NCBI GenBank assembly: GCA_963662545.2 | Contig: CAXXLL010000003.1 | Coordinates: 2,464,001 to 2,528,000 of the forward strand | Source of the DNA: Gammaproteobacteria bacterium | GTDB taxonomy: Bacteria > Pseudomonadota > Gammaproteobacteria > Ga0077536 | Direction: 5' to 3' | Length of the DNA: 64,000 bases | Shown here: in pieces, positions 239-64,000 of the stretch | How the letters are laid out: each line of letters starts with the position of its first letter | Position numbering within the stretch: the first letter of the stretch is position 1 | Program-made: the position numbers and the translations under genes | The notes under the pieces: generated by a model | Seen by the model: only the letters and a program-made list of their open reading frames with translations | The model's database searches: none | What the model was told of the DNA's origin: nothing

Positions 239-802
239 AATGGTCAGGGCCCCCCTGGGAGGGACAGACCCTGTTCTATCCCGCAAGCCGCGTTTGCACG
301 GCCCGCTCCATCCGCTGGTGATACCCGTCAATAACCTGGCGCGCTCGGGACTGTGTTTGTCTCGATATTTATGTGGCGGCCCAGTCATTCGTCACGACTC
401 ACATGCGCGGCATCGCGGCGGTTCACCGATGGCATTCGGTGACACTTTTCGCAGCTGGTCCTTCCGTAACCGATGAAACCGATGAAACCGACACCGCCCG
501 CCACGCCCCATCGTAAACCTGGACGAACCGCAACGAACCAATCTCTTGAGTCGGTGACGACACGGTGAAGACCCTGGGAAAGCCGGTCATTGCGCAAACG
601 TCGAGCGGAGATCTGAACCACATCATCTCGGTGCTGCGGCCAGCCGGGGTCACGGTTGAGCGGCAGAAAAGCGGCCGGCGGTTGATTTTCGGGTATACGG
701 TTCACTCGAAGGGGGGGCGCTGAAAGGCGTCGCCATGCGCGCGGGGCCGTGGTGGATAGACACTCGATACGGTCCCTGAACGAACAGCATTGGAGGATCA
801 TT

Positions 803-846
803 GGCGTTTATATACTTCACGACAAGTCGTCAAGTATATAAACGCC
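803..846. repeat. 44-bp near-perfect palindrome, possibly two fused IS1595-like ends
   Basis: GGCGTTTATATACTT (803-817) and AAGTATATAAACGCC (832-846) are a perfect 15-bp inverted repeat; it marks the break point of the FAH fragment. Confidence 0.7.
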
Positions 847-7466: not shown

Positions 7467-8351
7467 ATGAACGCGGCGGCGGCCGTGTACCGGGATTTCG
7501 ATCAGGCCGCGCTCGATGCGCAGTACAACAACCGCGCGCGCTTTCCTAACTTCCACGACCACTTCGAGGCGTGGGGACGCTGGAGCGCGGCCACGCGTGC
7601 AACGACGCCAGGGTTCATCGACGTAGCCTTCGGCGCGTCGGCGCCCGAGAAGATCGACGTCTTTCCCGCGGAGACCGACAGCGCGCCGCTGTACGTGTTC
7701 ATCCACGGCGGCTACTGGTACTCGCTCGACAAGGCCGATTACAGCTACGTGAGCGACGGGCTCAGGCCGCACGGCATCGCCACGGTGGTGAACAACTTCG
7801 GGCTCGCCCCGCAGCACGACATGGACGAAATCCTGCGGCAGAACCGCGCCGCACTCGCGTGGCTGTGGCGCCACGCGCGCGACTACGGCGGCGATCCCGA
7901 TCGCATCTACGTCGCCGGGCACTCTGCCGGCGGCCACCTCGCCGCGATGCTGCTGGCGACGGACTGGCCGGCCTTCGGCGAGGGGCTGCCCGCGGACCTC
8001 GTCAAGGGCGCGTGCGCGATCGGAGGGATCTTCGATCTCGATCCGATCCGGCTTTCGTTCCTGAACGAGAAGCTCGCCCTCACACCGGAACAGGTCGCAC
8101 GCCACAGCCCGCTTGGCCAGGCTTACCCGCGAGCAGCGCCGCTTCTGCTGATCGTCGCGGTCGACGAATCGCCCGAGTTCCATCGACAATCCGCCGAGAT
8201 GCATGCGCTCTGGCGTCGCCTCGGCTACCCAGTGGAATCGGTCGTGCCCGCAGGGCTCGATCACTTCGACGTGGTGAACCAGCTTCGCGATCCGCAGTGC
8301 GAGCTGGTGCGCCTGCAACTGCTCCAGATCGCCCTGGCGTTCGGCGCGTAA
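7467..8351 (+). CDS. Arylformamidase/kynurenine formamidase-like esterase
   Basis: LDAQYNNRA, FIHGGYW, GHSAGGHL and DHFDV motifs. Confidence 0.88.
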   Translation: MNAAAAVYRDFDQAALDAQYNNRARFPNFHDHFEAWGRWSAATRATTPGFIDVAFGASAPEKIDVFPAETDSAPLYVFIHGGYWYSLDKADYSYVSDGLRPHGIATVVNNFGLAPQHDMDEILRQNRAALAWLWRHARDYGGDPDRIYVAGHSAGGHLAAMLLATDWPAFGEGLPADLVKGACAIGGIFDLDPIRLSFLNEKLALTPEQVARHSPLGQAYPRAAPLLLIVAVDESPEFHRQSAEMHALWRRLGYPVESVVPAGLDHFDVVNQLRDPQCELVRLQLLQIALAFGA

Positions 8352-8500
8352 CGCGAGCACCGCGGAAGAACGTACACCGCTGCAGAATGCAAGAAGCATA
8401 AAGGCCCCTTTCTCCGAGTGCCCTTGCCCCGTGATATCATTCCTACCGTAGTTGGGTGGAAAGAGCGGTAGACGTTTCTATCGAAATCAGGAGAAAAGCC

Positions 8501-9256
8501 ATGGCGACCGTTGACATTGTTGATCGTGGGGACATGACCGAGAAGTTGATGGGGATGCTGGAGTTAGACCCGAAACAAACCGCGATCGTTACGATAGACA
8601 TGCACCGAGGGCACCTGGACCCCGAAGTTGCAACCATGCCCGCCTCGGCCGAAGACGCCGAAAAGGTCATAAAGAATGCCGAAGAAGTGTTGGACTTTGC
8701 GCGTGGCTACGGTATCCCGATCATTCACGTGAAGCTGGTATTCCGGAAAATACCCGGTCTGGGAAGCGAGGGGATGCCGGTGAAGTTCTGGAAGGCACTT
8801 CACGATATCGTAGACGAAAGCAATCGGCTGAGCCCCGGGCGCAAGAGCACGGTGGATGACCACAACATTATGGGATCGGTTCAGACCGAGCTCATCCCCA
8901 GCCTGGTCGAGGAAGGCGATTACGTCATCGACAACAAGAAGCGTCTCGACTGCTTCATGGGAACGGACCTGGAAGGTCTCCTGGATTCGCTGGGCGCAGA
9001 GAACGTGTGCCTGATGGGGATCAATACCAACACCTGTGTGATGAATACGGCTTTCACGGCTTTCAATAAGGACTACCGGGTAGTGGTGATGTCTGACTGC
9101 GTCGCCAGCATGTATGGTGAGGATCTCCACGTGCTCGGACTGCAGAATATCTGCCGATGCCTCGGCTGGGTCGTGAATAACGAAGAGTTCAAGGCGAAGG
9201 TGGCGGAGTCTCGTGGCGCGGACGAGCCCCAGGCAGCCGTTTCCGGGGTAGTCTGA
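8501..9256 (+). CDS. Isochorismatase/cysteine hydrolase
   Basis: TAIVTIDM, KKRLDCF and GINTNTCV give the D-K-C triad; RBS AGGAGA precedes ATG 8501. Confidence 0.9.
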   Translation: MATVDIVDRGDMTEKLMGMLELDPKQTAIVTIDMHRGHLDPEVATMPASAEDAEKVIKNAEEVLDFARGYGIPIIHVKLVFRKIPGLGSEGMPVKFWKALHDIVDESNRLSPGRKSTVDDHNIMGSVQTELIPSLVEEGDYVIDNKKRLDCFMGTDLEGLLDSLGAENVCLMGINTNTCVMNTAFTAFNKDYRVVVMSDCVASMYGEDLHVLGLQNICRCLGWVVNNEEFKAKVAESRGADEPQAAVSGVV

Positions 9257-54463: not shown

Positions 54464-54814
54464 ATCGGCAAAGTTAGGGATATGCTCTGCATAGGACCAC
54501 GGTTTATGAGTACCATTCTCAGGGAATGGGTTTGGGGGAAACGACCAATAGACCTAATCGACCATATCAGCCAAATAGCGCTCGTATTCCGAAGCAGATC
54601 GCCCATATCGGTACTGAGGAGGCGACAAAAACAACATCCGTTATACATCGCCCGCCCCCGGCTCGTTCGCTTCGGGCACAAGATGCGGACTTTTACTCCG
54701 CGGCGGTTAGTCCATCCGACCGATTCCGATGACCATTTTGTCCCCGGGATTCACGCCAAACTAGTTAATGCGCACTAGTTAAACCGCAAAGCTCGAATGT
54801 CCAGGAAGGGAGTT

Positions 54815-55348
54815 ATGGCTAAGAGTCTGATAAAAAACTATGGGCTTAGGTGGCATGCGTCTCGGGTGCAATGGTCGGGGCGAAATGAAGATGTTGGCCT
54901 ATGGGGAGTCCCTGCGAAGCGACGACGTTCCAAACCGACGAACTTTGCGGATCAGATCGCCATTTACGTACTGTACGATGGTGAGATACCAATATATGTC
55001 GGCCAGTCCGGGGCACGTAACAATAGGATTATGGGAAGGCTAAAGCACCACCGAGCCGACCGTCTTGCCGACCGCTGGGATCGATTTTCGTGGTTTGGAC
55101 TGTGTCGTGTGCAGGCAAATGGTGCGATCAATCCACAAGCGACAGTAGAGCAAATGCAGACCCCAGAAATATTGAACCAGATTGAAGCGGTCATTGTAGA
55201 GGCGGTCGAACCACGCCTAAACAGGCAAGGTGGTCAGTTTGGTACTCGCGTTGTGCGATATGTGCAATATCCAGATGCGCGCAGCGAGTTGTCCGATGGG
55301 ACCATGCTGAAGGAGCTGCATGAGGCGGTAGTCAGGGTTAACCAATGA
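54815..55348 (+). CDS. GIY-YIG nuclease family protein
   Basis: AIYVLY...IYVGQ...RLKHH...E...N; probable start MAKSLIKNYG after the AAGGGGAG RBS. Confidence 0.82.
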   Translation: MAKSLIKNYGLRWHASRVQWSGRNEDVGLWGVPAKRRRSKPTNFADQIAIYVLYDGEIPIYVGQSGARNNRIMGRLKHHRADRLADRWDRFSWFGLCRVQANGAINPQATVEQMQTPEILNQIEAVIVEAVEPRLNRQGGQFGTRVVRYVQYPDARSELSDGTMLKELHEAVVRVNQ

Positions 55349-56150: not shown

Positions 56151-56254
56151 GATGAGGACTCTCTAGCTCATAATATTCGACGCGTTATGATCCGATCTTT
56201 TCGGTCACAACATATTCGGTAGTGTCTTAGTTTGAAATCGGAATTTCCTAGCAA

Positions 56255-57951
56255 GTGTCCGTCCATAAACAGGCATTTTCTTCGATGGGCACGGAGAAAT
56301 CGAGGTGTTGAAAGTAGGTTGTTGGAGCGGTAGCGGCGGTTCGGTGGGGGTCGAAGGGCTCTTCGAGCGTAATTGTGAGTACGTTCGCCGGCCGCAGAGC
56401 GCTGCAACCCAAAGTCGCCCGTTCGACGATATCGAGGAGGTCAGTTAGTGCGAGTGAACGTCGCTATTCGAGTTGATAGCGCGCGAGCAGGCTGAGGTTG
56501 TAGGCGACCACAGAAGACCACACGTAGGCTTCGAAGTGCGGCAGGCTCTTCCAGGTGCAACGTGCCAATCCGTATGCACGCTTCAGGCAGGAGATACCGG
56601 CCTCGATGCCGGCGCGGAAGTTGCGCAAGCGTCGATAGACCCACTGACTCTTGACCATGTCGGCGATCGCGAGCCCGCGCTTCTTGTGGAAGGCAACGTC
56701 TTCGATGCCTTCTGCTTTCGCCGCCCGGAGATTGTCGAGGCTCGCATAGCCGCCATCGGCGGCGACCTGTCGTGGCATCGTCCCGTAGTGTGTTCGATGC
56801 CGTTCGAGCATCGGCATGAAGCGCTGACTATCGACCGGATTGCCTCGCTCGATGACCACGTCGAGGATGAGGCCACTGCGCCCCGAAGCCAGATTGATTT
56901 TGTGTCCGTACTGAACGTCGCGCGCACCCTTTATGATGATGTCGGTATGCGGCTCGAACAAGCTCACGCACTTCTCGCTCGCGGGGACCTTCTCACCGCC
57001 GAACACCCGCCGCTCAGTTTGCGAAATCACCTGCAGAACAAGTGTTTCGTAGTGCGCTACCTGCGCTAGCCAGTCCGGCAGTTCAACGCCGGTGACGCCC
57101 GGGCTCAGCAGCTGCTCACGTACCCTCGCTACCGCTTCCAAGGTTGAACGCGTCGCCCCAATCAAATCGCGATACAGACGTTGGCGTTGCTTCGCACCAC
57201 GCGCATACCACAGCGCCCGCGCACGCTTCTTCGCCAATCGAGTGTGGTTCACGAAGCACAACTCCGGCGCGCCAGGCAACTCGCGCGCCTGTGCGAGCAG
57301 ACGAACCACAACACGCACGCCATCCCACAGCAGATGACTGTCGCTCGGCGCGTGGATGGCACTGTCCGTTACCGTGCTATCAATCCGTACACGCTGTGCC
57401 GGCTCAATGCGCGTCTCTTTCGCCGTCGCCAGCAGGGCGCGATGAATAGACTCCCACGTCGATACCTGGATCGCCGAGACCACCCGCTGTAAGGCAGACT
57501 TCTTCGGACGTTCATTACCCGGCAACCGGGCGAAGGCCTGAAAGCTCGCCGAGTCCTGCAGGTGAAAGGCCAGCTCCTCGTAACTCAATTGCCGGTGCTG
57601 CTTGAGCACCGCGCAGCGCAGCACCGACTCCGCCGACAGTCCGCGTCGACCGGTGGGCTTCAAACCCCGCCGACACAGATCGTTCATGACCGGCGTGAGG
57701 ACCTTGGGGTGAGCATCGAGCCACTCGGACATGCCCTGCAGCTCTCGCCCCAGGTCATGGTCAGCAAACAGCTCGTATATACTCGCTTGGGCCGTGCGTT
57801 TCTGACGCATTCCCCCTCCTGTGGTGTCGATGATTGTGTGGAAAATCAGAGGTTTGAAGTTCCATTAGATCACGACCCACCGGAGGTTTCGATCCCTTAA
57901 GCGACAAATTTTCCTTTTTATTTCAACCGCATCGCGTTTAGGGATGCACAC
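56255..57951 (-). mobile_element. ISNCY family element
   Basis: Ends GTGTCCGTCCATAAAC / GTTTAGGGATGCACAC; near-duplication TAGCAA/TAGCTA. Confidence 0.8.
56464..57810 (-). CDS. ISNCY family transposase
   Basis: RIDSTV, SLFEPHTDII, AADGGYAS and FRAGIEAGIS motifs. Confidence 0.92.
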   Translation of the reverse strand: MRQKRTAQASIYELFADHDLGRELQGMSEWLDAHPKVLTPVMNDLCRRGLKPTGRRGLSAESVLRCAVLKQHRQLSYEELAFHLQDSASFQAFARLPGNERPKKSALQRVVSAIQVSTWESIHRALLATAKETRIEPAQRVRIDSTVTDSAIHAPSDSHLLWDGVRVVVRLLAQARELPGAPELCFVNHTRLAKKRARALWYARGAKQRQRLYRDLIGATRSTLEAVARVREQLLSPGVTGVELPDWLAQVAHYETLVLQVISQTERRVFGGEKVPASEKCVSLFEPHTDIIIKGARDVQYGHKINLASGRSGLILDVVIERGNPVDSQRFMPMLERHRTHYGTMPRQVAADGGYASLDNLRAAKAEGIEDVAFHKKRGLAIADMVKSQWVYRRLRNFRAGIEAGISCLKRAYGLARCTWKSLPHFEAYVWSSVVAYNLSLLARYQLE

Positions 57952-58116
57952 TAGCTAAAGGCCTCCCGTCATCGCCATTTCAGGTCTCGTCAATCAAGCT
58001 CCTTAAGAACCTCACGCCCGCTAATTCGACCGCCAATTGGGCGGTTCTTTTTGGGCTGTACTGGAGGGGCTCTGTAGCTAGGGCCTGTCAGCGCCTGAGC
58101 GAAGTAGTTGCATGCA

Positions 58117-58165
58117 TTGACGAATAAACGTCAACGGCTATATACGATTGACGATCTCAACGTCG
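58117..58165. promoter_or_regulatory. Tandem palindromic operators overlapping -35-like boxes
   Basis: TTGACG-N6-CGTCAA followed by TTGACG-N7-CGTCGC. Confidence 0.45.
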
Positions 58166-59108
58166 CCATAGCACACTGCCAACCGTGACAATTCGCGTGG
58201 TCCGCCCCTGCCGGGCCACCCGTTGAATGCAATAGCCGCTATACGGTTCGGGAGTAGCTACGCAAGTTTGGTGAACAGGCGGGGACTTCCTCTTTCCGAG
58301 ACATGCTGGCAGGGGGGATGCAGGGGTCGGCTTTTAGCATCGCTGCTTCGGCCGACCTTTCCTCCTGCCGGCGCCCTGGGTAAACGGGCATATCCCAATG
58401 ATTTGAGAGCACCCCGCCTGAGTGGGTCAGGCGGGGCTCAAACCGACGAGAAGGAGAGTTCTCATGAGTGATGAAGACTTTCAAGGGGGCCGATTGGCCG
58501 CGCCGATGAAATCACGCCTCGGATTCAAGAGGCGGGTATTCTGCTGGACATGAAGGTTCGGTATCCTGGAATGCGGCCGCAAGATCCTCCTTCAAGAGAA
58601 GCGGTACTGGTTCCTCTGGATGTGGGTTTCGAATTGTCGGAAGCACTACGATCGGCGGTGATAGAGTGGAGACGGCACTATCAGGATCGGGATTAGAATT
58701 AGACACAGAAAAACCCTCCTGGTTATCTATGGAGACAACCGCCGCGAGGGTGTGTTGCGCGTCCTTAGCTTGCCGGCCGCGAAGCGCGTTATCGAACCAG
58801 GTCGGGGTGGCATAGCCTGCACCCCACCCTCTCTTCAACCTGCGCACCGCACCATTTTAGACTGAGACAGTACCCCGCTGACTTGTCACGATGGCCCGTA
58901 ACCGCTTGATTTCACCCATGGGCACAAACCCCAGCCCTAAGTTCAGACACTCGATGTCTGTGCACACGGTGGCCGACGGTGGCCACCGTGGCCAGCCGCA
59001 CATGTACGTCTGGCAGGACACGAACAGCGCTCAGCAGGCGTGGGTGCATGATGGGATGGGGTGCGAGGCAGGGGTGCGTGGCGGTGCGGTACAGCAAATT
59101 TCGGGCGC

Positions 59109-59255
59109 CATGGCCGATGGCCGCGAGGTGTACCGGTCAGGTGCGCGATAATTCATCTTATCGCACATCTGATGCGAATCGAACATGGGACCTGGCGCAG
59201 ATTGATGAAGGGGTTCGCGGTCTCCGCGGCGCGAGCTCGAAGTATCTATGCCTCC
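59109..59255 (+). repeat. ~145-bp module A with Xer/dif-like site
   Basis: GGTGCGCGATAA-TTCATC-TTATCGCACATC, then CATGGGACC, a G-run and TCGAAGTATCTATG. Confidence 0.7.
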
Positions 59256-60294
59256 GAACGTCCCTTACCCTCCCTCACACACGAGAGCCGGTACCGTAGG
59301 CCGGGCGCCCAGCGATATAATGGATGGGCACCTCCGTACCATGGTACCGTGGGCTGTGGGGGCGGTGGTAAGTGCCGAGCAACACAGTCAATGGCACGGG
59401 GGCACGCTCTCACGTGCGCCATCAAGGGCCGCCAGCCTTAAGTCGCGGCGTTCCAGCTGCGCGATAATGGGTCTCATCGCGCAGCTGAAAGGGATCGCCG
59501 GAAGGGGAGGATCCCCGGCGCGGGCATACGTGCACCTGTATAGATAGACATATTTTTTCGTTTTTTGTGTCAAAAGCCTGTTTTTTCCAATGTGATCATA
59601 TGGATATCTGGCACAAACCTGGCACAGCGCTGTGCCGGCCACCCTGGGTCGACATGACGCACATGTAGCTTGCGCGATGGAAACTTCCCACCCCGGCACG
59701 GAGGTCCGCTGCGCGCCAGCCGTTCGAAAATCGTAAGCGCCGCGATGTGGATCGCCCCAGCTTTTCCGAAGACCTTTTTGGTTGAGTCGACCTGCGTCCA
59801 ACTCGCGCATCAGCAGTGGACTACTTAATGGCCGCAAGAGCGACGTTGCTTCATTGAGGGGGTCATTTTTTCCGCCGGTTCGGGCCCCGGCTGACGCGGA
59901 TTGACGCCTCTATTATTACATCCGATAATTGTCCTTATCAGACATAATAGCGGGCGAGAACCCCATGCAAAAGACCCCGGCCCTGAGCCCCGCGCGCGCC
60001 GTGTCCACCGCCGGGGCCTCTGTGGTCGAAATGCAGCAGGCGGGCCGCTGGCAATCGCCGTCCATGCCGGGCCGCTATGCGTGGGGCCCGCCGGGGCGCC
60101 GTCGCCAGGCTCCGCTACGGGGCGTGACTCAGCGCCACTGCGTGGGCCGGTGCTGCCAGATTCTGCGGGCACCGGGAACTTGACGCTGTGTCGTCAAGCC
60201 TATAGGCACCCGCTAATGCATGAGAGGTATGGGCGGTATAAAGGCGCTGGGATGTCAAGCCTTGACGCTGCACGCGTACCAACCCGAAGTTTGG

Positions 60295-60392
60295 GTGGAC
60301 CTATATCTGCGCGTTCGGCTGGCCTGCCATGTTGATGGTCTGAGCCAGCGAGAGGCGGCAAGTCGGTTTGGCATTGCGCGCGAGACGGTGAG
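60295..60392 (+). repeat. 98-bp internal copy of IS21 istA 5' region
   Basis: Matches 43613-43710; no IS21 ends present. Confidence 0.9.
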
Positions 60393-60470
60393 CCGGCGTC
60401 AGATTTCAATCGCAGGCCGAACGTCGGTCTCGATCGACGCGCGCCCGCGCCCATGTCCTGGGCGCTCAAA

Positions 60471-60613
60471 CCATGGCTGAGCCGGGTTCCAGATGCGCGA
60501 TAATTCACTTTATCGCGCATCAGCCCCGGTCGCCGCATGGGACCCGCAGCAATCGAGGACCGGGGGGGGGCTCCTTTTTGCCTCGCCGCTCGATTCGAAG
60601 TACCTATGGGTCC
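60471..60613 (+). repeat. ~145-bp module B with Xer/dif-like site
   Basis: CATGGCTGAGCCGGGTTCC, GATGCGCGATAA-TTCACT-TTATCGCGCATC, CATGGGACCC, G-run, AAGTACCTATGGGTC. Confidence 0.78.
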
Positions 60614-61403
60614 ATTCATCCCACGGGAGCCCTCGCGCACGGGGCTTGGGGTGGTCAAACATTGACCAATTGGCACAGAAATATGCAGGCGGTGTGCCGG
60701 GTCTGTGCCGCTCTAGGCCGCGTGGGACGTGGGAGCTATGCCAGGCTGTGCCGGCGTTGTGCCGGGTTTTAGGGGGTATTATTATTATCTTTTCAATAAG
60801 ATAGATAGATAGGGGGTTGACGTTTCGATGTTTTCCCCCGGAAACACCCCTCACGCGCGCGCGAATGCGCGCGCACCCGAATCTACCTTTTTTCTGGGAT
60901 TCTGTGCCATTTGCCACTTTTCCTTTTAGGTTCAGTAGGTTATCCGGCACACGCTTGGCACAGCGTTGTGCCGGGAACCTGAATCTCCCGAAAATTCAGA
61001 GGTTTAACATACCCTCTCCAGCACATGGTAATGTGGGTTTGTGTCGGCGCTGGGTAGTGTCTCAGTCAGACGTTTTCCAATGACAAAAAATGACCCGACC
61101 GAGGTCTATAACATGCTCGACGACCTCGGCTTGCTGGAGGGCATTGGCCGGGAGCCGGACAACATCACGAAGATTATCTGGCGCTGCCTCAGAAACTATC
61201 GCGACAAAGCGCTAATTTCATACTGAGACACTGCCACATATTCGCATGCGTTTAAGACCACCGACCATCCATGGAACAATCCGCCCGTCAATACAAGGTC
61301 GTCATGCCCGTACGCTAACCAGCCGGAGGCTTGGGCAGTACGGAAGCGTCAGGGTGTCAAAACCTCGGCGCCTCGCGCGCAGGCCCCAACAAGTGAGACA
61401 ACG

Positions 61404-61545
61404 AGACCCATAGGTACTTAAGCCAAACGCCGACGTGGTTGGAGGACCCCCCCTGAGGCTTCAAGCCAACGGGTCCCATCCGCGACTCTTTGCACATGCG
61501 CGATAAACCCAATTTTCGCGTATCGGGAACCCGGGCTCAGCCATG
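61404..61545 (-). repeat. ~145-bp module C (inverted)
   Basis: Minus strand CATGGCTGAGCCCGGGTTCC, GATACGCGAAAA-TTGGGT-TTATCGCGCAT, ATGGGACCC, G-run, AAGTACCTATGGGTC. Confidence 0.78.
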
Positions 61546-62275
61546 ATTCGAGCGCCCGGGACGTGAGCGGGGGGCGCGCATTGACCAAGACCGACAGGGG
61601 CCTCCAATACTTCACACAGGGTGTCATCGCAGGGGCATGAGATTCTGCGCGTCAGGGTCGCCCGGGCCATCGCATGGGGCTATCGCCCCGCGGCCACCGG
61701 CACGCCTTGCTCGCGGATCACGCGCTATCGCCGTCCGTTGCGAGGGCGGCTGCCCTCTTGTACCCCTTGCAGGAGGGCAGTCTCTATCTTATTCGGACCA
61801 GGCGGCTGAACCATTGTGGCTGATGGAACCCACTCCCTGGCCAGCACCCGCACCGTGTGCAAGTGTGGGAACTGCGCCTATTTCTATGTGAGTTGTAACG
61901 ATAAGGTCGGGTAGTTCACCGTGAACCGCCGCAGGTAAATCAAATGGATGCCAATGAGATGGTGCTGTGGCCGAAGGTTTGTTGCAGCGACTGGTGCGGG
62001 CAATACAGGTCCGTTGACGACGATTACGAACGGGAAGAAGCGAGTCGGGCGCGTCGCCTGGTACCGCTGATAAGCAGGTGCGTTGTAGCGGCATGACCGC
62101 ATGCCAAACCCGCAACCCTGTAGCCTCAGTTAGAAGAACGGTTAAAATCTTGAGTTAGGAGATTTCGATCTGGATTCAGGGAATTTAAAGGAGGCCTTGT
62201 CAATGTATGCTCTCATCAAAGCGGCGCTGGACAAGACCGGCGCCTTCCGGTGTTTGCGGCGCGGGTTGTAGCCCC

Positions 62276-63223
62276 ATGAGTGATTTCATCGCGCGCAAGG
62301 ATCACCTGGAATGCCTGATAGCTGAGTGGGAAAGCTTTGCGACGCCCACAGCTGACAAGCACGCTCCACAGCAAACGTACCTGGCCGACTTGAAGCAAAC
62401 GCGCTTGGTTGCGTTAAAAAAGGAGCTTGCCGGGATAGAGCGGCGTGAACGCCGGTCTCGGAAACCCCGCGCCGGCAAGCACCGCCGCCCCGCAGACGCC
62501 GGGGAAGAGGGAACTTTCATAGCACCGGATTTCCAGGAGAGTTTTTTCGCCTATCCAAAGGCCATGCGCAGGCTGAAGACACGATTGAAAGCGACGAGGG
62601 AGGAATTAGCGGCTTGGGTGTTTTTAGGGCCGGCACTGGGCGGAGTCACGGCCTACGTGAATGTCGATGAGGAGGAACCGCCGAAGCTCTTCAATTACTA
62701 CCCCCCCAGGGCTGGCTGGGACTATTGTGCGCCGCTGATGGTTTGTTGGTTTATCCGGGAAGAGGTAGTCAACTTTAAGCCAAGCAAGCGGTACATAACG
62801 GGCAGCGTACTCATCGAGCGCTGGCACAAGTATGAGGACATCGATCCGGCAGAATTCATCGGTGCCCAGATCAACAAAGGACGTTTAAGCGATATCCACC
62901 CTATTAAAGGCCACACCCAGGGGGGCATGGGCATGCTGGGGAACGATGCGTATCCTCCGCTGGAAAGCGGTCTTTTCGCAGTCTCTGAAATAGAAGCGAT
63001 CGAGGAGACTTATTTCGACACGGGCGCAGCAGACGGGCCAGCAAAAGATCCGGGACGCTTGAATCACGATCTTGAGCTTCAAGCTCGTGCAAACGAAATT
63101 GCAAAAGATCTAAAGGAAAAGCGCAAACGGGACGTAACCAGAAATGACGTCGCAAAGCATTTGGCCGAGGAGTGTGGTCTTACTGAAGCCACGGTCGTGC
63201 GCAGGATACGGAAGAAGTGGTAG
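62276..63223 (+). CDS. Hypothetical protein with C-terminal HTH-like segment
   Basis: Long open frame; N-terminal coiled coil; C-terminal VAKHLAEECGLTEATVVRRI; typical position upstream of alpA. Confidence 0.7.
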   Translation: MSDFIARKDHLECLIAEWESFATPTADKHAPQQTYLADLKQTRLVALKKELAGIERRERRSRKPRAGKHRRPADAGEEGTFIAPDFQESFFAYPKAMRRLKTRLKATREELAAWVFLGPALGGVTAYVNVDEEEPPKLFNYYPPRAGWDYCAPLMVCWFIREEVVNFKPSKRYITGSVLIERWHKYEDIDPAEFIGAQINKGRLSDIHPIKGHTQGGMGMLGNDAYPPLESGLFAVSEIEAIEETYFDTGAADGPAKDPGRLNHDLELQARANEIAKDLKEKRKRDVTRNDVAKHLAEECGLTEATVVRRIRKKW

Positions 63224-63369
63224 AGCCACGTAAATAATTCCGTGTAACTGCTCATTCACAGCGGTCCCGGCCGGCGCTCAGGTCAGGGAACTCGAACACA
63301 AAGCGATTCAGCGCGCCTGTCCAATGTCAGATGGGTATGGTTCCCTTGCTTTGCGTCGCCATCGGTCGC

Positions 63370-63625
63370 CAGACATCACTTTCAGCACCGCCTGGTCCTG
63401 TGGAAACACCTTTCGGTTTCTACGGCCTCGCAGATCACACGGTTCAATGACTCGATCGCGTTGGTGGTATCAATCACCATATGGATGTCTTCGGGGTCAT
63501 CGAACAACGTGAGCAGGTTCGCCCAATAGCGTGTCCGGTTTTGCCCGAGGGCCGGATATCGTTGAGCTTTGAACTCGTTACGAGTGACTAACGCCTGCCT
63601 GTCGAGATCGCGGGCCAACGCTGCC
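63370..63625 (-). mobile_element. Degenerate IS256 family remnant
   Basis: W..LLTLFDDPEDIHMVIDTTNAIESLN. Confidence 0.75.
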
Positions 63626-63867
63626 ATGTCTGGTGGCCTCTCGGTCGTGCTCATCGTCCATCGCCGTATCCATTGAGGCGGTGTGTCCAAGCGCCGTTAC
63701 ACCATTTGAATTCCAGTCTGTCGTGGTGAAACGGTTGATTGCCTAACTACCTAAAGTGCCTAAATAGCTCGTTGTATTCGCAGGGAAAAGGCAAGAGCGA
63801 ATAGGTTCCGCCTATTTACGGCCTCGGCTGTAATAGGCGGTGTCAAGAACACCTAAGAGTTGTCAAC

Positions 63868-64000
63868 ATGCCGATTAGCATCCTGAGACTTCCCGCCGTC
63901 AAGGCCCGTACCGGACTTTCTCGCAGCACGATTTATCTCCGCATATCAGAAGGCAATTTCCCAAAGCCCATATCCCTGGGCGGCCGCGCCGTCGGCTGGG
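63868..64000 (+). CDS. alpA: AlpA family regulator/excisionase (runs off window)
   Basis: ILRLPAVKARTGLSRSTIYLRISEGNFPKPISLGGRAVGW. Confidence 0.95.
   Translation, partial: MPISILRLPAVKARTGLSRSTIYLRISEGNFPKPISLGGRAVGW

What the first reader, a model, noticed from the sequence alone, without database searches (positions are those of the whole stretch)
56218..61235. 5-kb transposase-less composite element with an 8-bp target duplication and mostly non-coding cargo
Seen: outer 21-bp inverted ends (18/21) with ACATATTC immediately outside both (56210-56217, 61236-61243). Two further ends of the same type lie inside (right-type ACTGAGACAGTACC ending at 58874; left-type GGTAGTGTCTCAGT at 61053). 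The layout is therefore [L..R]-2.2 kb core-[L..R]. The only transposase inside belongs to a separate nested ISNCY. Known: 8-bp duplications and passenger-carrying derivatives occur in the IS1595 family; my family assignment is from recalled end sequences. Inference: two MITE-like units mobilised a block of cis-acting sites (recombinase-like sites, iterons) as one unit.
Basis: partly seen in the sequence, partly recalled or inferred. Interest (0 to 1): 0.78.

Follow-up and report, generated by a model that had tools for sequence, protein, structure and literature searches.

The report
IS1-family composite transposon lacking its transposase
A 5-kb stretch bounded by the ends of an IS1-family jumping gene, with an 8-base target duplication and an empty copy of its target elsewhere in the genome, likely moved as one piece, but it carries broken remains of other mobile elements, so it is a minor variant of known hitch-hiking composite transposons.

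Summary
In detail: four ends, ACATATTC on both sides, and a nested ISNCY. An empty paralogous site with one target copy lies in the same genome (439 of 508 aligned bases identical), so the duplication is real. The family is IS1, not IS1595: the genome's one complete element with these ends encodes a single-ORF IS1-type transposase, and of 53 paired elements with such ends in other genomes 29 carry that enzyme, none an IS1595 enzyme, and 36 have an exact 8-bp duplication. The cargo is not a purpose-built block of sites: 85% of the core is paralogous to DNA elsewhere in the genome, mostly primase/AlpA islands, and it includes a tyrosine recombinase gene missing 460 bp and a 98-bp istA scrap. The ISNCY came later (two strains lack it), so at most 3.3 kb moved. 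Neither inner unit has a copy with its own duplication, so 'MITE' is not shown. Best reading: one composite jump (0.6); assembly in place is the main rival. This scan noted the IS1 passenger family, and MITE-bounded composites of other families, in other genomes before. New variant of a known kind; interest 0.3.

The parts
56210..56217 (+). left copy of the 8-bp target duplication
   Evidence: single copy at the empty paralogous site
56218..56238 (+). outer left end (L1), 20 of 21 identical to the end of the resident complete IS1-type element
56255..57951 (-). nested ISNCY element, 1,697 bp (transposase ORF 56464-57810), 6-bp duplication at 56249-56254 and 57952-57957 with one mismatch; a later insertion
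   Evidence: NF033593 above cut-off; 49 left and 51 right ends in the genome; 1,703-bp skip in runs X3 and X5
57958..58853 (.). non-coding cargo of the left unit (unit is 954 bp without the ISNCY); 58129-58236 recurs at 7 other loci, at the one mapped lying downstream of an integrase island; 58410-58471 hairpin and ribosome-site-like leader recurs at 2
   Evidence: no Pfam hit for 3 ORFs tested; no Rfam hit
58854..58874 (-). inner end R2, 18 of 21 identical to the family end
58875..61052 (.). core, 2,178 bp; 1,842 bp have a paralogue elsewhere in the genome
59142..59167 (.). palindromic recombinase-type site (10-6-10)
59458..59483 (.). palindromic recombinase-type site (10-6-10), start of the part 96% identical to the island at C2:1747135-1748551
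59602..59643 (.). iteron-like GGCACA/TGTGCC repeats (more at about 60670-60980)
   Evidence: 13 in the core, 6.0 per kb against 0.43 per kb genome-wide; function not tested
59918..59945 (.). second palindromic site with the same GATAA-N6-TTATC centre, directly upstream of the recombinase remnant
59965..60183 (+). tyrosine recombinase gene remnant lacking 460 bp relative to the paralogue at C2:1747346-1747810 (itself broken near its start)
   Evidence: PF00589 61.3 bits on the paralogue; alignment
60295..60392 (+). 98-bp internal scrap of an IS21-family istA gene, 100% identical to 12 places in the genome
60494..60519 (.). palindromic recombinase-type site, inverted partner of the site at 61497 outside the element
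61053..61235 (+). right unit, 183 bp: inner end L3 (14-base match), 3' piece of an unidentified ORF (61080-61226) that stops inside the end, and outer right end R4 (61215-61235, 19 of 21 identical to the family end)
   Evidence: sister copy 181 of 183 identical; relative in G001 over 144 bp
61236..61243 (+). right copy of the 8-bp target duplication
61497..61522 (.). palindromic site in the right flank, outside the element; start of the island with a 338-aa ORF, AlpA and a primase-like gene

Best explanation
The segment is a transposase-less insertion bounded by IS1-family ends, which likely jumped into ACATATTC in one step as a composite, driven by an IS1-type transposase likely supplied by a complete family member elsewhere in the genome. 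Steps: (1) shown: the outer ends abut a duplicated 8-mer and an uninterrupted paralogue exists. (2) Shown: these ends belong to passenger-carrying single-ORF IS1-type elements that make 8-bp duplications, and one with an intact-looking transposase gene is resident. (3) Inferred: two different family derivatives had come to bracket 2.2 kb of a primase/AlpA island end; because ends are nearly the same across the family, the enzyme used the two outermost ends and carried everything between, at most 3.3 kb of what is there now. (4) Shown by strain alleles: the ISNCY inserted afterwards. (5) Inferred: deletions wore down the cargo (recombinase gene, istA scrap), which is passive debris. Whether the enzyme came in trans or from a gene inside that was lost later is about 55 to 45.
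For: Exact 8-bp repeat only on the outer pair and an empty paralogue. Resident element C3:133125-136142, 3,018 bp, perfect 22-bp ends, 295-aa transposase with PF03400 above cut-off (35.8 against 24.1 bits) and no IS1595 Pfam hit. Family survey: 36 of 53 paired elements have an exact 8-bp duplication, 6 more with one mismatch, no other exact length; 26 full and 3 partial IS1-type transposases; 11 of the 24 without one have an exact duplication. Four relatives picked by protein, not by ends, all have such ends and 3 of 4 an exact 8-bp duplication. The resident element's counterpart in G001 is 92% identical, at another site, with its own 8-bp duplication. Outer ends are 20 and 19 of 21 identical to the resident end. 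No trace of the transposase or of the small companion gene inside the segment by tblastn at E up to 1. The L1-flank junction is bridged in runs X1 and X3, R2-core in X1, X3, X5 and X9, core-L3 in X3; no joint skipping the core or the whole element was listed in the 4 runs.
Against: No second insertion of the whole composite and no donor site were found. Neither unit occurs on its own with a duplication; the one other copy of the right unit keeps the same flanks. No four-end composite among 80 and 112 other loci with these ends, though loci were at most 12 kb. The empty allele is a paralogue at 86% identity, not the same locus in a sister strain. The transposase scores below the NCBIfam IS1 cut-off (76.7 against 100 bits). 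IS1 transposase is recalled to act mainly in cis. The core is a mosaic with crossover-type sites, so part of it may have been exchanged after insertion.
Confidence: 0.6

Rival explanations
1. Assembly in place. One IS1-type element inserted first and made the duplication. Later a circle made of a second family element plus adjacent island DNA (the core) entered by recombination or transposase-driven joining at the shared end sequence. The result has the same four-end layout, but the core never travelled with the outer ends.
For: L1 and L3 are direct repeats (16 of 21) and the two units share nothing else (best local score 18), so a crossover in the end gives this layout. The resident complete element has lost its duplication and joins two truncated genes, an exosortase and a sensor kinase, as adjacent deletion would; such events release circles (PMC7986276 and PMC11708052, passages, on other IS families). 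The core comes from the same island family as the target.
Against: No simple allele was seen: no joint skipping the left unit and core in 4 runs (contigs, identity 90% or more) and none in the genome. It needs one more rare event than a composite jump.
Confidence: 0.27
2. Decayed ordinary composite. The one-step jump happened, but one unit still encoded its transposase then (as in composites of two complete IS1-family copies) and lost it later by deletion. This shares the one-step move with the best explanation; its weight is part of that 0.6.
For: The right unit looks like a deletion product: a 14-base end match fused to the 3' end of an ORF, while the G001 relative runs on differently after 144 bp. 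Deletions are evident in the cargo. The insertion is old: strains share the left junction with 22 differences in 378 bases (X3).
Against: No remnant of the transposase or of the small companion gene (present in 28 of 53 family elements) in either unit; both units would have had to lose all trace. Transposase-less members with exact duplications are common in the family, though these could also be deletion products.
Confidence: 0.27
3. One reading: IS1595-family MITEs moved a functional block of recombination sites and iterons.
For: 8-bp duplications also occur in IS1595 (recalled); the genome holds 14 IS1595-type matches; the sites are real and their arms reassort.
Against: 0 of 53 and 0 of 40 elements with these ends hold an IS1595 transposase; none of the genome's IS1595-type matches lies between such ends. 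The recombinase gene next to the sites is deleted and the block is not found outside close kin.
Confidence: 0.05
4. Chance: the 8-bp match is accidental and the ends come from unrelated insertions.
For: The region is dense in insertion sequences and rearranged island pieces.
Against: Chance about 6e-5 for three pairings, the length equals the family's duplication length, and the flanks are contiguous in the empty paralogue.
Confidence: 0.01

Closest known systems
TIME-COMPs and IMU-bounded units (composites bounded by Tn3-derived miniature elements; PMC13367494, abstract and passages seen)
   Same: No transposase of its own, four ends, direct repeats only at the outermost ends (their criterion for a unit move), enzyme needed in trans.
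   Different: Ends are IS1-type, the duplication is 8 bp and not 5-6 bp, the two units are unrelated inside (954 and 183 bp) where TIME-COMPs have two copies of one element, the cargo is debris and not a resistance gene, and only one insertion is known.
Class 1 integrons flanked by 439-bp MITEs and MITE-297-flanked regions in Acinetobacter (PMC9771954 and PMC6382973, passages seen)
   Same: Composite-like structure bounded by non-autonomous elements.
   Different: Those have identical MITE copies and occur in several contexts; here the units differ and neither is shown to move alone.
IS1-family composite transposons: Tn6645 bounded by ISAba3-like elements with an 8-bp duplication (PMC6382973, passage seen); Tn9 (recalled)
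   Same: IS1-family ends, 8-bp duplication at the outer ends, captured DNA between two elements.
   Different: Those have complete IS copies with transposase genes; here none remains, and the ends are of the passenger-carrying single-ORF branch.
Passenger-carrying IS ('tIS'; term seen in PMC7986276 and PMC9330008 passages) of the single-ORF IS1 branch, recalled as the ISMhu11 subgroup (Siguier et al. 2009, PMID 19286454; paper not held, only its reference line seen)
   Same: The resident partner has one transposase ORF with an N-terminal helix-turn-helix and no zinc finger, upstream passengers, and ends beginning GGnnnTG.
   Different: The window's element is a transposase-less composite of derivatives. 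The subgroup name and its definition are recalled and were not checked against ISfinder.

Membership tests
IS1 family (ends and partner transposase) | IS1-type DDE transposase in the autonomous partner | tested here: met
   PF03400 35.8 bits against cut-off 24.1; best NCBIfam model is IS1 but 76.7 bits is below its cut-off of 100; 3 of the 4 closest plasmid relatives are annotated IS1 family transposase
IS1 family (ends and partner transposase) | terminal inverted repeats of about 20-25 bp shared with the transposase-bearing elements | tested here: met
   outer ends 20 and 19 of 21, inner 18 and 17 of 21 identical to the resident end; 4 of 4 protein-selected relatives carry such ends
IS1 family (ends and partner transposase) | 8-9 bp target duplication (recalled) | tested here: met
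   8 bp here; 36 of 53 exact 8 bp and no other exact length; 26 of 40 in viral and metagenome loci, where only 8 bp was tested
single-ORF passenger-carrying IS1 branch (ISMhu11 subgroup, recalled) | one ORF, no N-terminal zinc finger, helix-turn-helix kept, passengers upstream | tested here: met
   26 transposases of 274-297 aa, CxxC in the first 60 residues in 0 of 26; HTH hits and passengers. The definition is recalled.
single-ORF passenger-carrying IS1 branch (ISMhu11 subgroup, recalled) | clusters with named ISfinder members | not testable with these tools
   ISfinder not available; the name was found in 0 papers and in 5 unrelated papers as a substring
IS1595 family | ISXO2-like transposase (PF12762) between the ends of the autonomous partner | tested here: not met
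   no PF12762 hit on the partner; NF033547 31.9 bits against cut-off 75; 0 of 53 and 0 of 40 elements
MITE (each inner unit) | short, inverted ends, no transposase | tested here: met
   954 bp and 183 bp, ends 17 of 21 and 16 of 21 alike within each unit
MITE (each inner unit) | independent copies with their own target duplications | tested here: not met
   one sister copy of the right unit with the same flanks and no duplication; no other copy of the left unit
MITE-bounded composite (TIME-COMP-like) | direct repeats at the outermost ends and an empty target | tested here: met
MITE-bounded composite (TIME-COMP-like) | two copies of the same miniature element | tested here: not met
   the units share only their ends
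MITE-bounded composite (TIME-COMP-like) | moves as a unit with transposase in trans | not testable with these tools
   needs a transposition assay; no second insertion found
Xer/dif sites (for the palindromes) | XerC arm plus XerD arm as in chromosomal dif (consensus recalled) | tested here: not met
   the dif-consensus scan found C2:2180004 and two other places, none of the 13 palindromic sites; the sites are symmetric and share their centre with the site upstream of the element-borne recombinase

The most novel reading that the evidence does not exclude
Ends of this IS1 branch are almost the same across phyla, so any resident member can pair ends from unrelated, transposase-less relatives into a hybrid composite; this unit is still mobile in the population (run X5 shows the left end joined to other DNA exactly at its tip) and ferries working recombination sites between satellite-like islands, driving their reshuffling.
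Probability: 0.2. Interest if true: 0.55.

Novelty: new variant of a known kind. Interest (0 to 1): 0.3.

Why it matters
It is a well-supported natural case, with an empty target in the same genome, of DNA capture between ends of two different non-autonomous IS1-family derivatives. Published transposase-less composites that I saw use two copies of one miniature element, mostly of Tn3 origin. If hybrid pairing is general, this widespread passenger-carrying IS1 branch can move more than the cargo inside one element, and annotation by transposase gene will miss it. The cargo here has no evident function and the unit is known from one insertion, which limits the weight.

Tried and rejected
IS1595 partner: tested and rejected. 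Other copies or cargoes in the genome: a 2-mismatch scan gave 51 hits and a profile scan 31 hits; only 5 inward pairings within 30 kb, one with a duplication. Relatives of the interior: matches in 2 of 40 related genomes (G001: the istA scrap and site arms only; G032: 31 bp); 1 marginal match among 399 other scored genomes of the class, one genome not scored; none in plasmids; exact left-end motif in 0 metagenome contigs; 9 metagenome and 103 viral loci with family ends showed no likeness to the cargo beyond the end itself. Structured RNA in the cargo: no Rfam match at E up to 1; left-unit cargo folds at z = -1.3. Promoters and terminators: 3 and 4 found against 1.7 and 4.7 by chance, so the promoter-like match over the 59918 site is no evidence. 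Parent of the right-unit ORF: 12 candidates, none scored (only longer proteins searched, weak evidence). Simple cointegrate of one element with a circle: rejected, as the core does not begin and end with a repeat and the units are unrelated. Intact allele of the genes cut by the resident element: not found in G001 or G002. Three papers on IS classification were not held. No supplements were read; tables of IS ends in them could bear on the subgroup name.
Full report
Observation. The described features are in the sequence. The outer ends at 56218 and 61235 match at 18 of 21 bases and both abut ACATATTC. Two more ends, ending at 58874 and starting at 61053, point away from a 2,178-bp core. Among the three inward-facing pairings only the outer one has an 8-bp repeat. 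An exact 8-mer has a chance of 1.9e-5 per pairing, and 102 of 2,969,361 positions of the contig show one at the same distance. It is a paralogue in the same genome, not the same locus in a sister strain.

Family. A genome scan for the end motif gave exact matches at only three loci: the window, a sister locus at C3:2220907-2221089, and a 3,018-bp element at C3:133125-136142 with perfect 22-bp ends. That element encodes a 295-aa transposase, an HTH-IrrE-type peptidase, a 186-aa protein and a 79-aa basic protein. The transposase hits PF03400 (IS1) above cut-off and no IS1595 Pfam model; in NCBIfam IS1 is best but below cut-off (76.7 of 100 bits), IS1595 scores 31.9 of 75; 3 of its 4 closest plasmid relatives are annotated IS1 family. 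They gave 53 distinct paired elements: 36 with an exact 8-bp duplication, 6 with one mismatch, 11 with none (a few weak pairings are probably false and were left in); 26 with a full and 3 with a partial IS1-type transposase, 24 with none, and 0 with an IS1595-type one. Among 112 viral and metagenome loci, 40 pairs gave 26 exact duplications and again 0 IS1595. Since these sets were picked by their ends, I also checked four relatives picked by protein: all four have such ends and three an exact 8-bp duplication. The 26 aligned transposases are single ORFs without an N-terminal CxxC. I recall this as the ISMhu11 subgroup; the name was in 0 held papers and the defining paper was not held. In G001, of the same genus, the resident element's counterpart is 92% identical, sits elsewhere and has its own 8-bp duplication, and a 1-kb transposase-less member with an 8-bp duplication is also present.

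Interior. The ISNCY (56255-57951; NF033593 above cut-off) is one of about 50 copies and has its own 6-bp duplication. Contigs of runs X3 and X5, two of four runs from four studies, skip exactly 1,703 bases here, so it is a later insertion and the rest of the element is 3,315 bp. The left unit is then 954 bp; 234 of its 917 post-ISNCY bases have paralogues, such as a leader found at 7 other loci and mapped downstream of an integrase island at one. In the core 1,842 of 2,178 bases have a paralogue. 59339-60295 is 96% identical to DNA downstream of a primase/VapE helicase island on C2. That paralogue carries a tyrosine recombinase match (PF00589, 61.3 bits) of which the window lacks 460 bp, leaving an ORF with the C-terminal motif. 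Next come 98 bases identical to the start of an IS21 istA gene and 660 bases shared with the sister locus. So the cargo is non-coding because it is decayed. Eleven of 13 have a conserved octamer in one arm, and the arms occur in three combinations (5, 2 and 2 sites), as expected of crossover points. A site with the same centre lies upstream of 1 of 35 tyrosine recombinase matches, the island-borne one. GGCACA/TGTGCC repeats run at 6.0 per kb in the core against 0.43 genome-wide; that they are iterons is inference.

Are the units MITEs? Not shown. The left unit has no second copy. The right unit has one, 181 of 183 identical, but with the same core on its left (581 of 656) and the same target and flank on its right (268 of 294), and without a duplication of its own: it is the right half of this same structure, copied with its island, and more alike than its surroundings (P = 2e-6), which suggests later conversion. 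Its inner end follows the family end for 14 bases and is fused to the tail of an ORF; a relative in G001 shares 144 bases from the outer end and then differs. It looks like a deletion product.

Strains. In one search (contigs, 90% identity or more; X1 may be the source of this genome) the left junction is bridged in X1 and in a minor X3 contig with 22 differences in 378 bases; an X5 contig with 16 differences in 188 bases reaches 10 bases into the end. R2-core is bridged in all four runs and core-L3 in X3. No joint skipping the core or the whole element was listed. The insertion is therefore old. One X5 contig of 1,024 bases has 217 bases laid right of the ISNCY site and 30 left of it, ending at the tip of the left end; I infer from the table that it runs on into other DNA. 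Its letters were not seen, so a second insertion, the donor site and an adjacent deletion all remain open.

Mechanism. Shown: an IS1-type event joined L1 and R4 to this target. Inferred: the four-end unit moved in one step (0.6), helped by ends that are nearly the same across the family, with enzyme in trans slightly favoured over a since-deleted internal gene because no trace of the transposase or its small companion gene remains. The main rival (0.27) is assembly in place, where a circle of a second element plus island DNA entered a resident element at the shared end. The resident complete element, which lacks a duplication and joins two truncated genes, shows that such rearrangements happen here; adjacent deletion as a cause of missing duplications is described for other families (PMC11708052, passages). 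Against my reading: no second insertion, no donor, and no four-end composite among 80 and 112 other loci.

Comparison and novelty. Composites bounded by non-autonomous elements are known: TIME-COMPs and IMU units, moved by Tn3-family enzymes in trans (PMC13367494, abstract and passages), and MITE-flanked integrons in Acinetobacter (PMC9771954, PMC6382973, passages). An IS1-family composite with complete IS copies and an 8-bp duplication is also described (Tn6645, PMC6382973, passage). Two searches for MITE-bounded composites (14 papers listed, 1 paper) showed no IS1-family case in the listings or in the passages read; a MITE review showed none in three passages (PMC10969869). This is a limited library, so absence from print is not established. 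Earlier notes of this scan describe the same IS1 passenger family and MITE-bounded composites of other families in other genomes; these are unchecked leads and my family assignment was made before reading them. Verdict: a real, transposase-less IS1-family composite with debris as cargo; new variant of a known kind; interest 0.3.

Noticed in passing
G000:C3:133125-136142 (L001:2126-5143): Complete IS1-type element with HTH-IrrE peptidase, 186-aa and 79-aa passengers; no target duplication; it joins a 5'-truncated exosortase gene to a 3'-truncated hybrid sensor kinase gene, as after an adjacent deletion.
   Followed up: partly
13 places in G000, including window 59142, 59458, 60494, 61497: A family of symmetric 10-6-10 sites with a conserved octamer in one arm and reassorted arms, at the ends of primase/AlpA islands; distinct from dif; which recombinase acts on them is open.
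   Followed up: partly
window 60295-60392: A 98-bp scrap from inside istA, 100% identical to 12 IS21-family copies, bridges two island pieces with at most 1-2 bases of overlap at the joints.
   Followed up: partly
window 61497-64000 and L009:1-4502: Island with a 338-aa ORF (two paralogues in the genome, no Pfam or PHROG family above cut-off), an IS256 piece, AlpA and an 837-aa primase-like gene, ending near tRNA-Ser, with no integrase match inside.
   Followed up: partly
window 56255-57951 and about 50 other places: The ISNCY has a strong target preference (TAGCTA-like 6-mers) and forms tandem arrays: 6 ends are followed directly by another copy.
   Followed up: no
G001:C16, L160 about 7715-8769: A transposase-less member of the family of about 1 kb with an exact 8-bp duplication, two unlike ends and ORFs inside.
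   Followed up: no
window 60180-60199; C2:1746036-1746081; C3:2220161-2220206; window 797-846: A recurring hairpin with a CTTGACG-N-CGTCAAG centre at island ends, next to the module that starts at 60391.
   Followed up: no
G000 C2, ten or more places such as 499049, 560443, 637180, and C3: Another repeated palindrome with a GATAA-N6-TTATC centre and a fixed spacer, 14 identical copies in the list, probably part of a repeat element.
   Followed up: no
window 54797-55348: 183-aa ORF left of the target with a GIY-YIG-like motif by eye; no Pfam, NCBIfam or PHROG hit.
   Followed up: no
G000:C3:2325112-2325361 and C3:2913940: A worn 3' piece of a family transposase, and a lone degenerate family end 2.2 kb from the empty paralogous site.
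   Followed up: no
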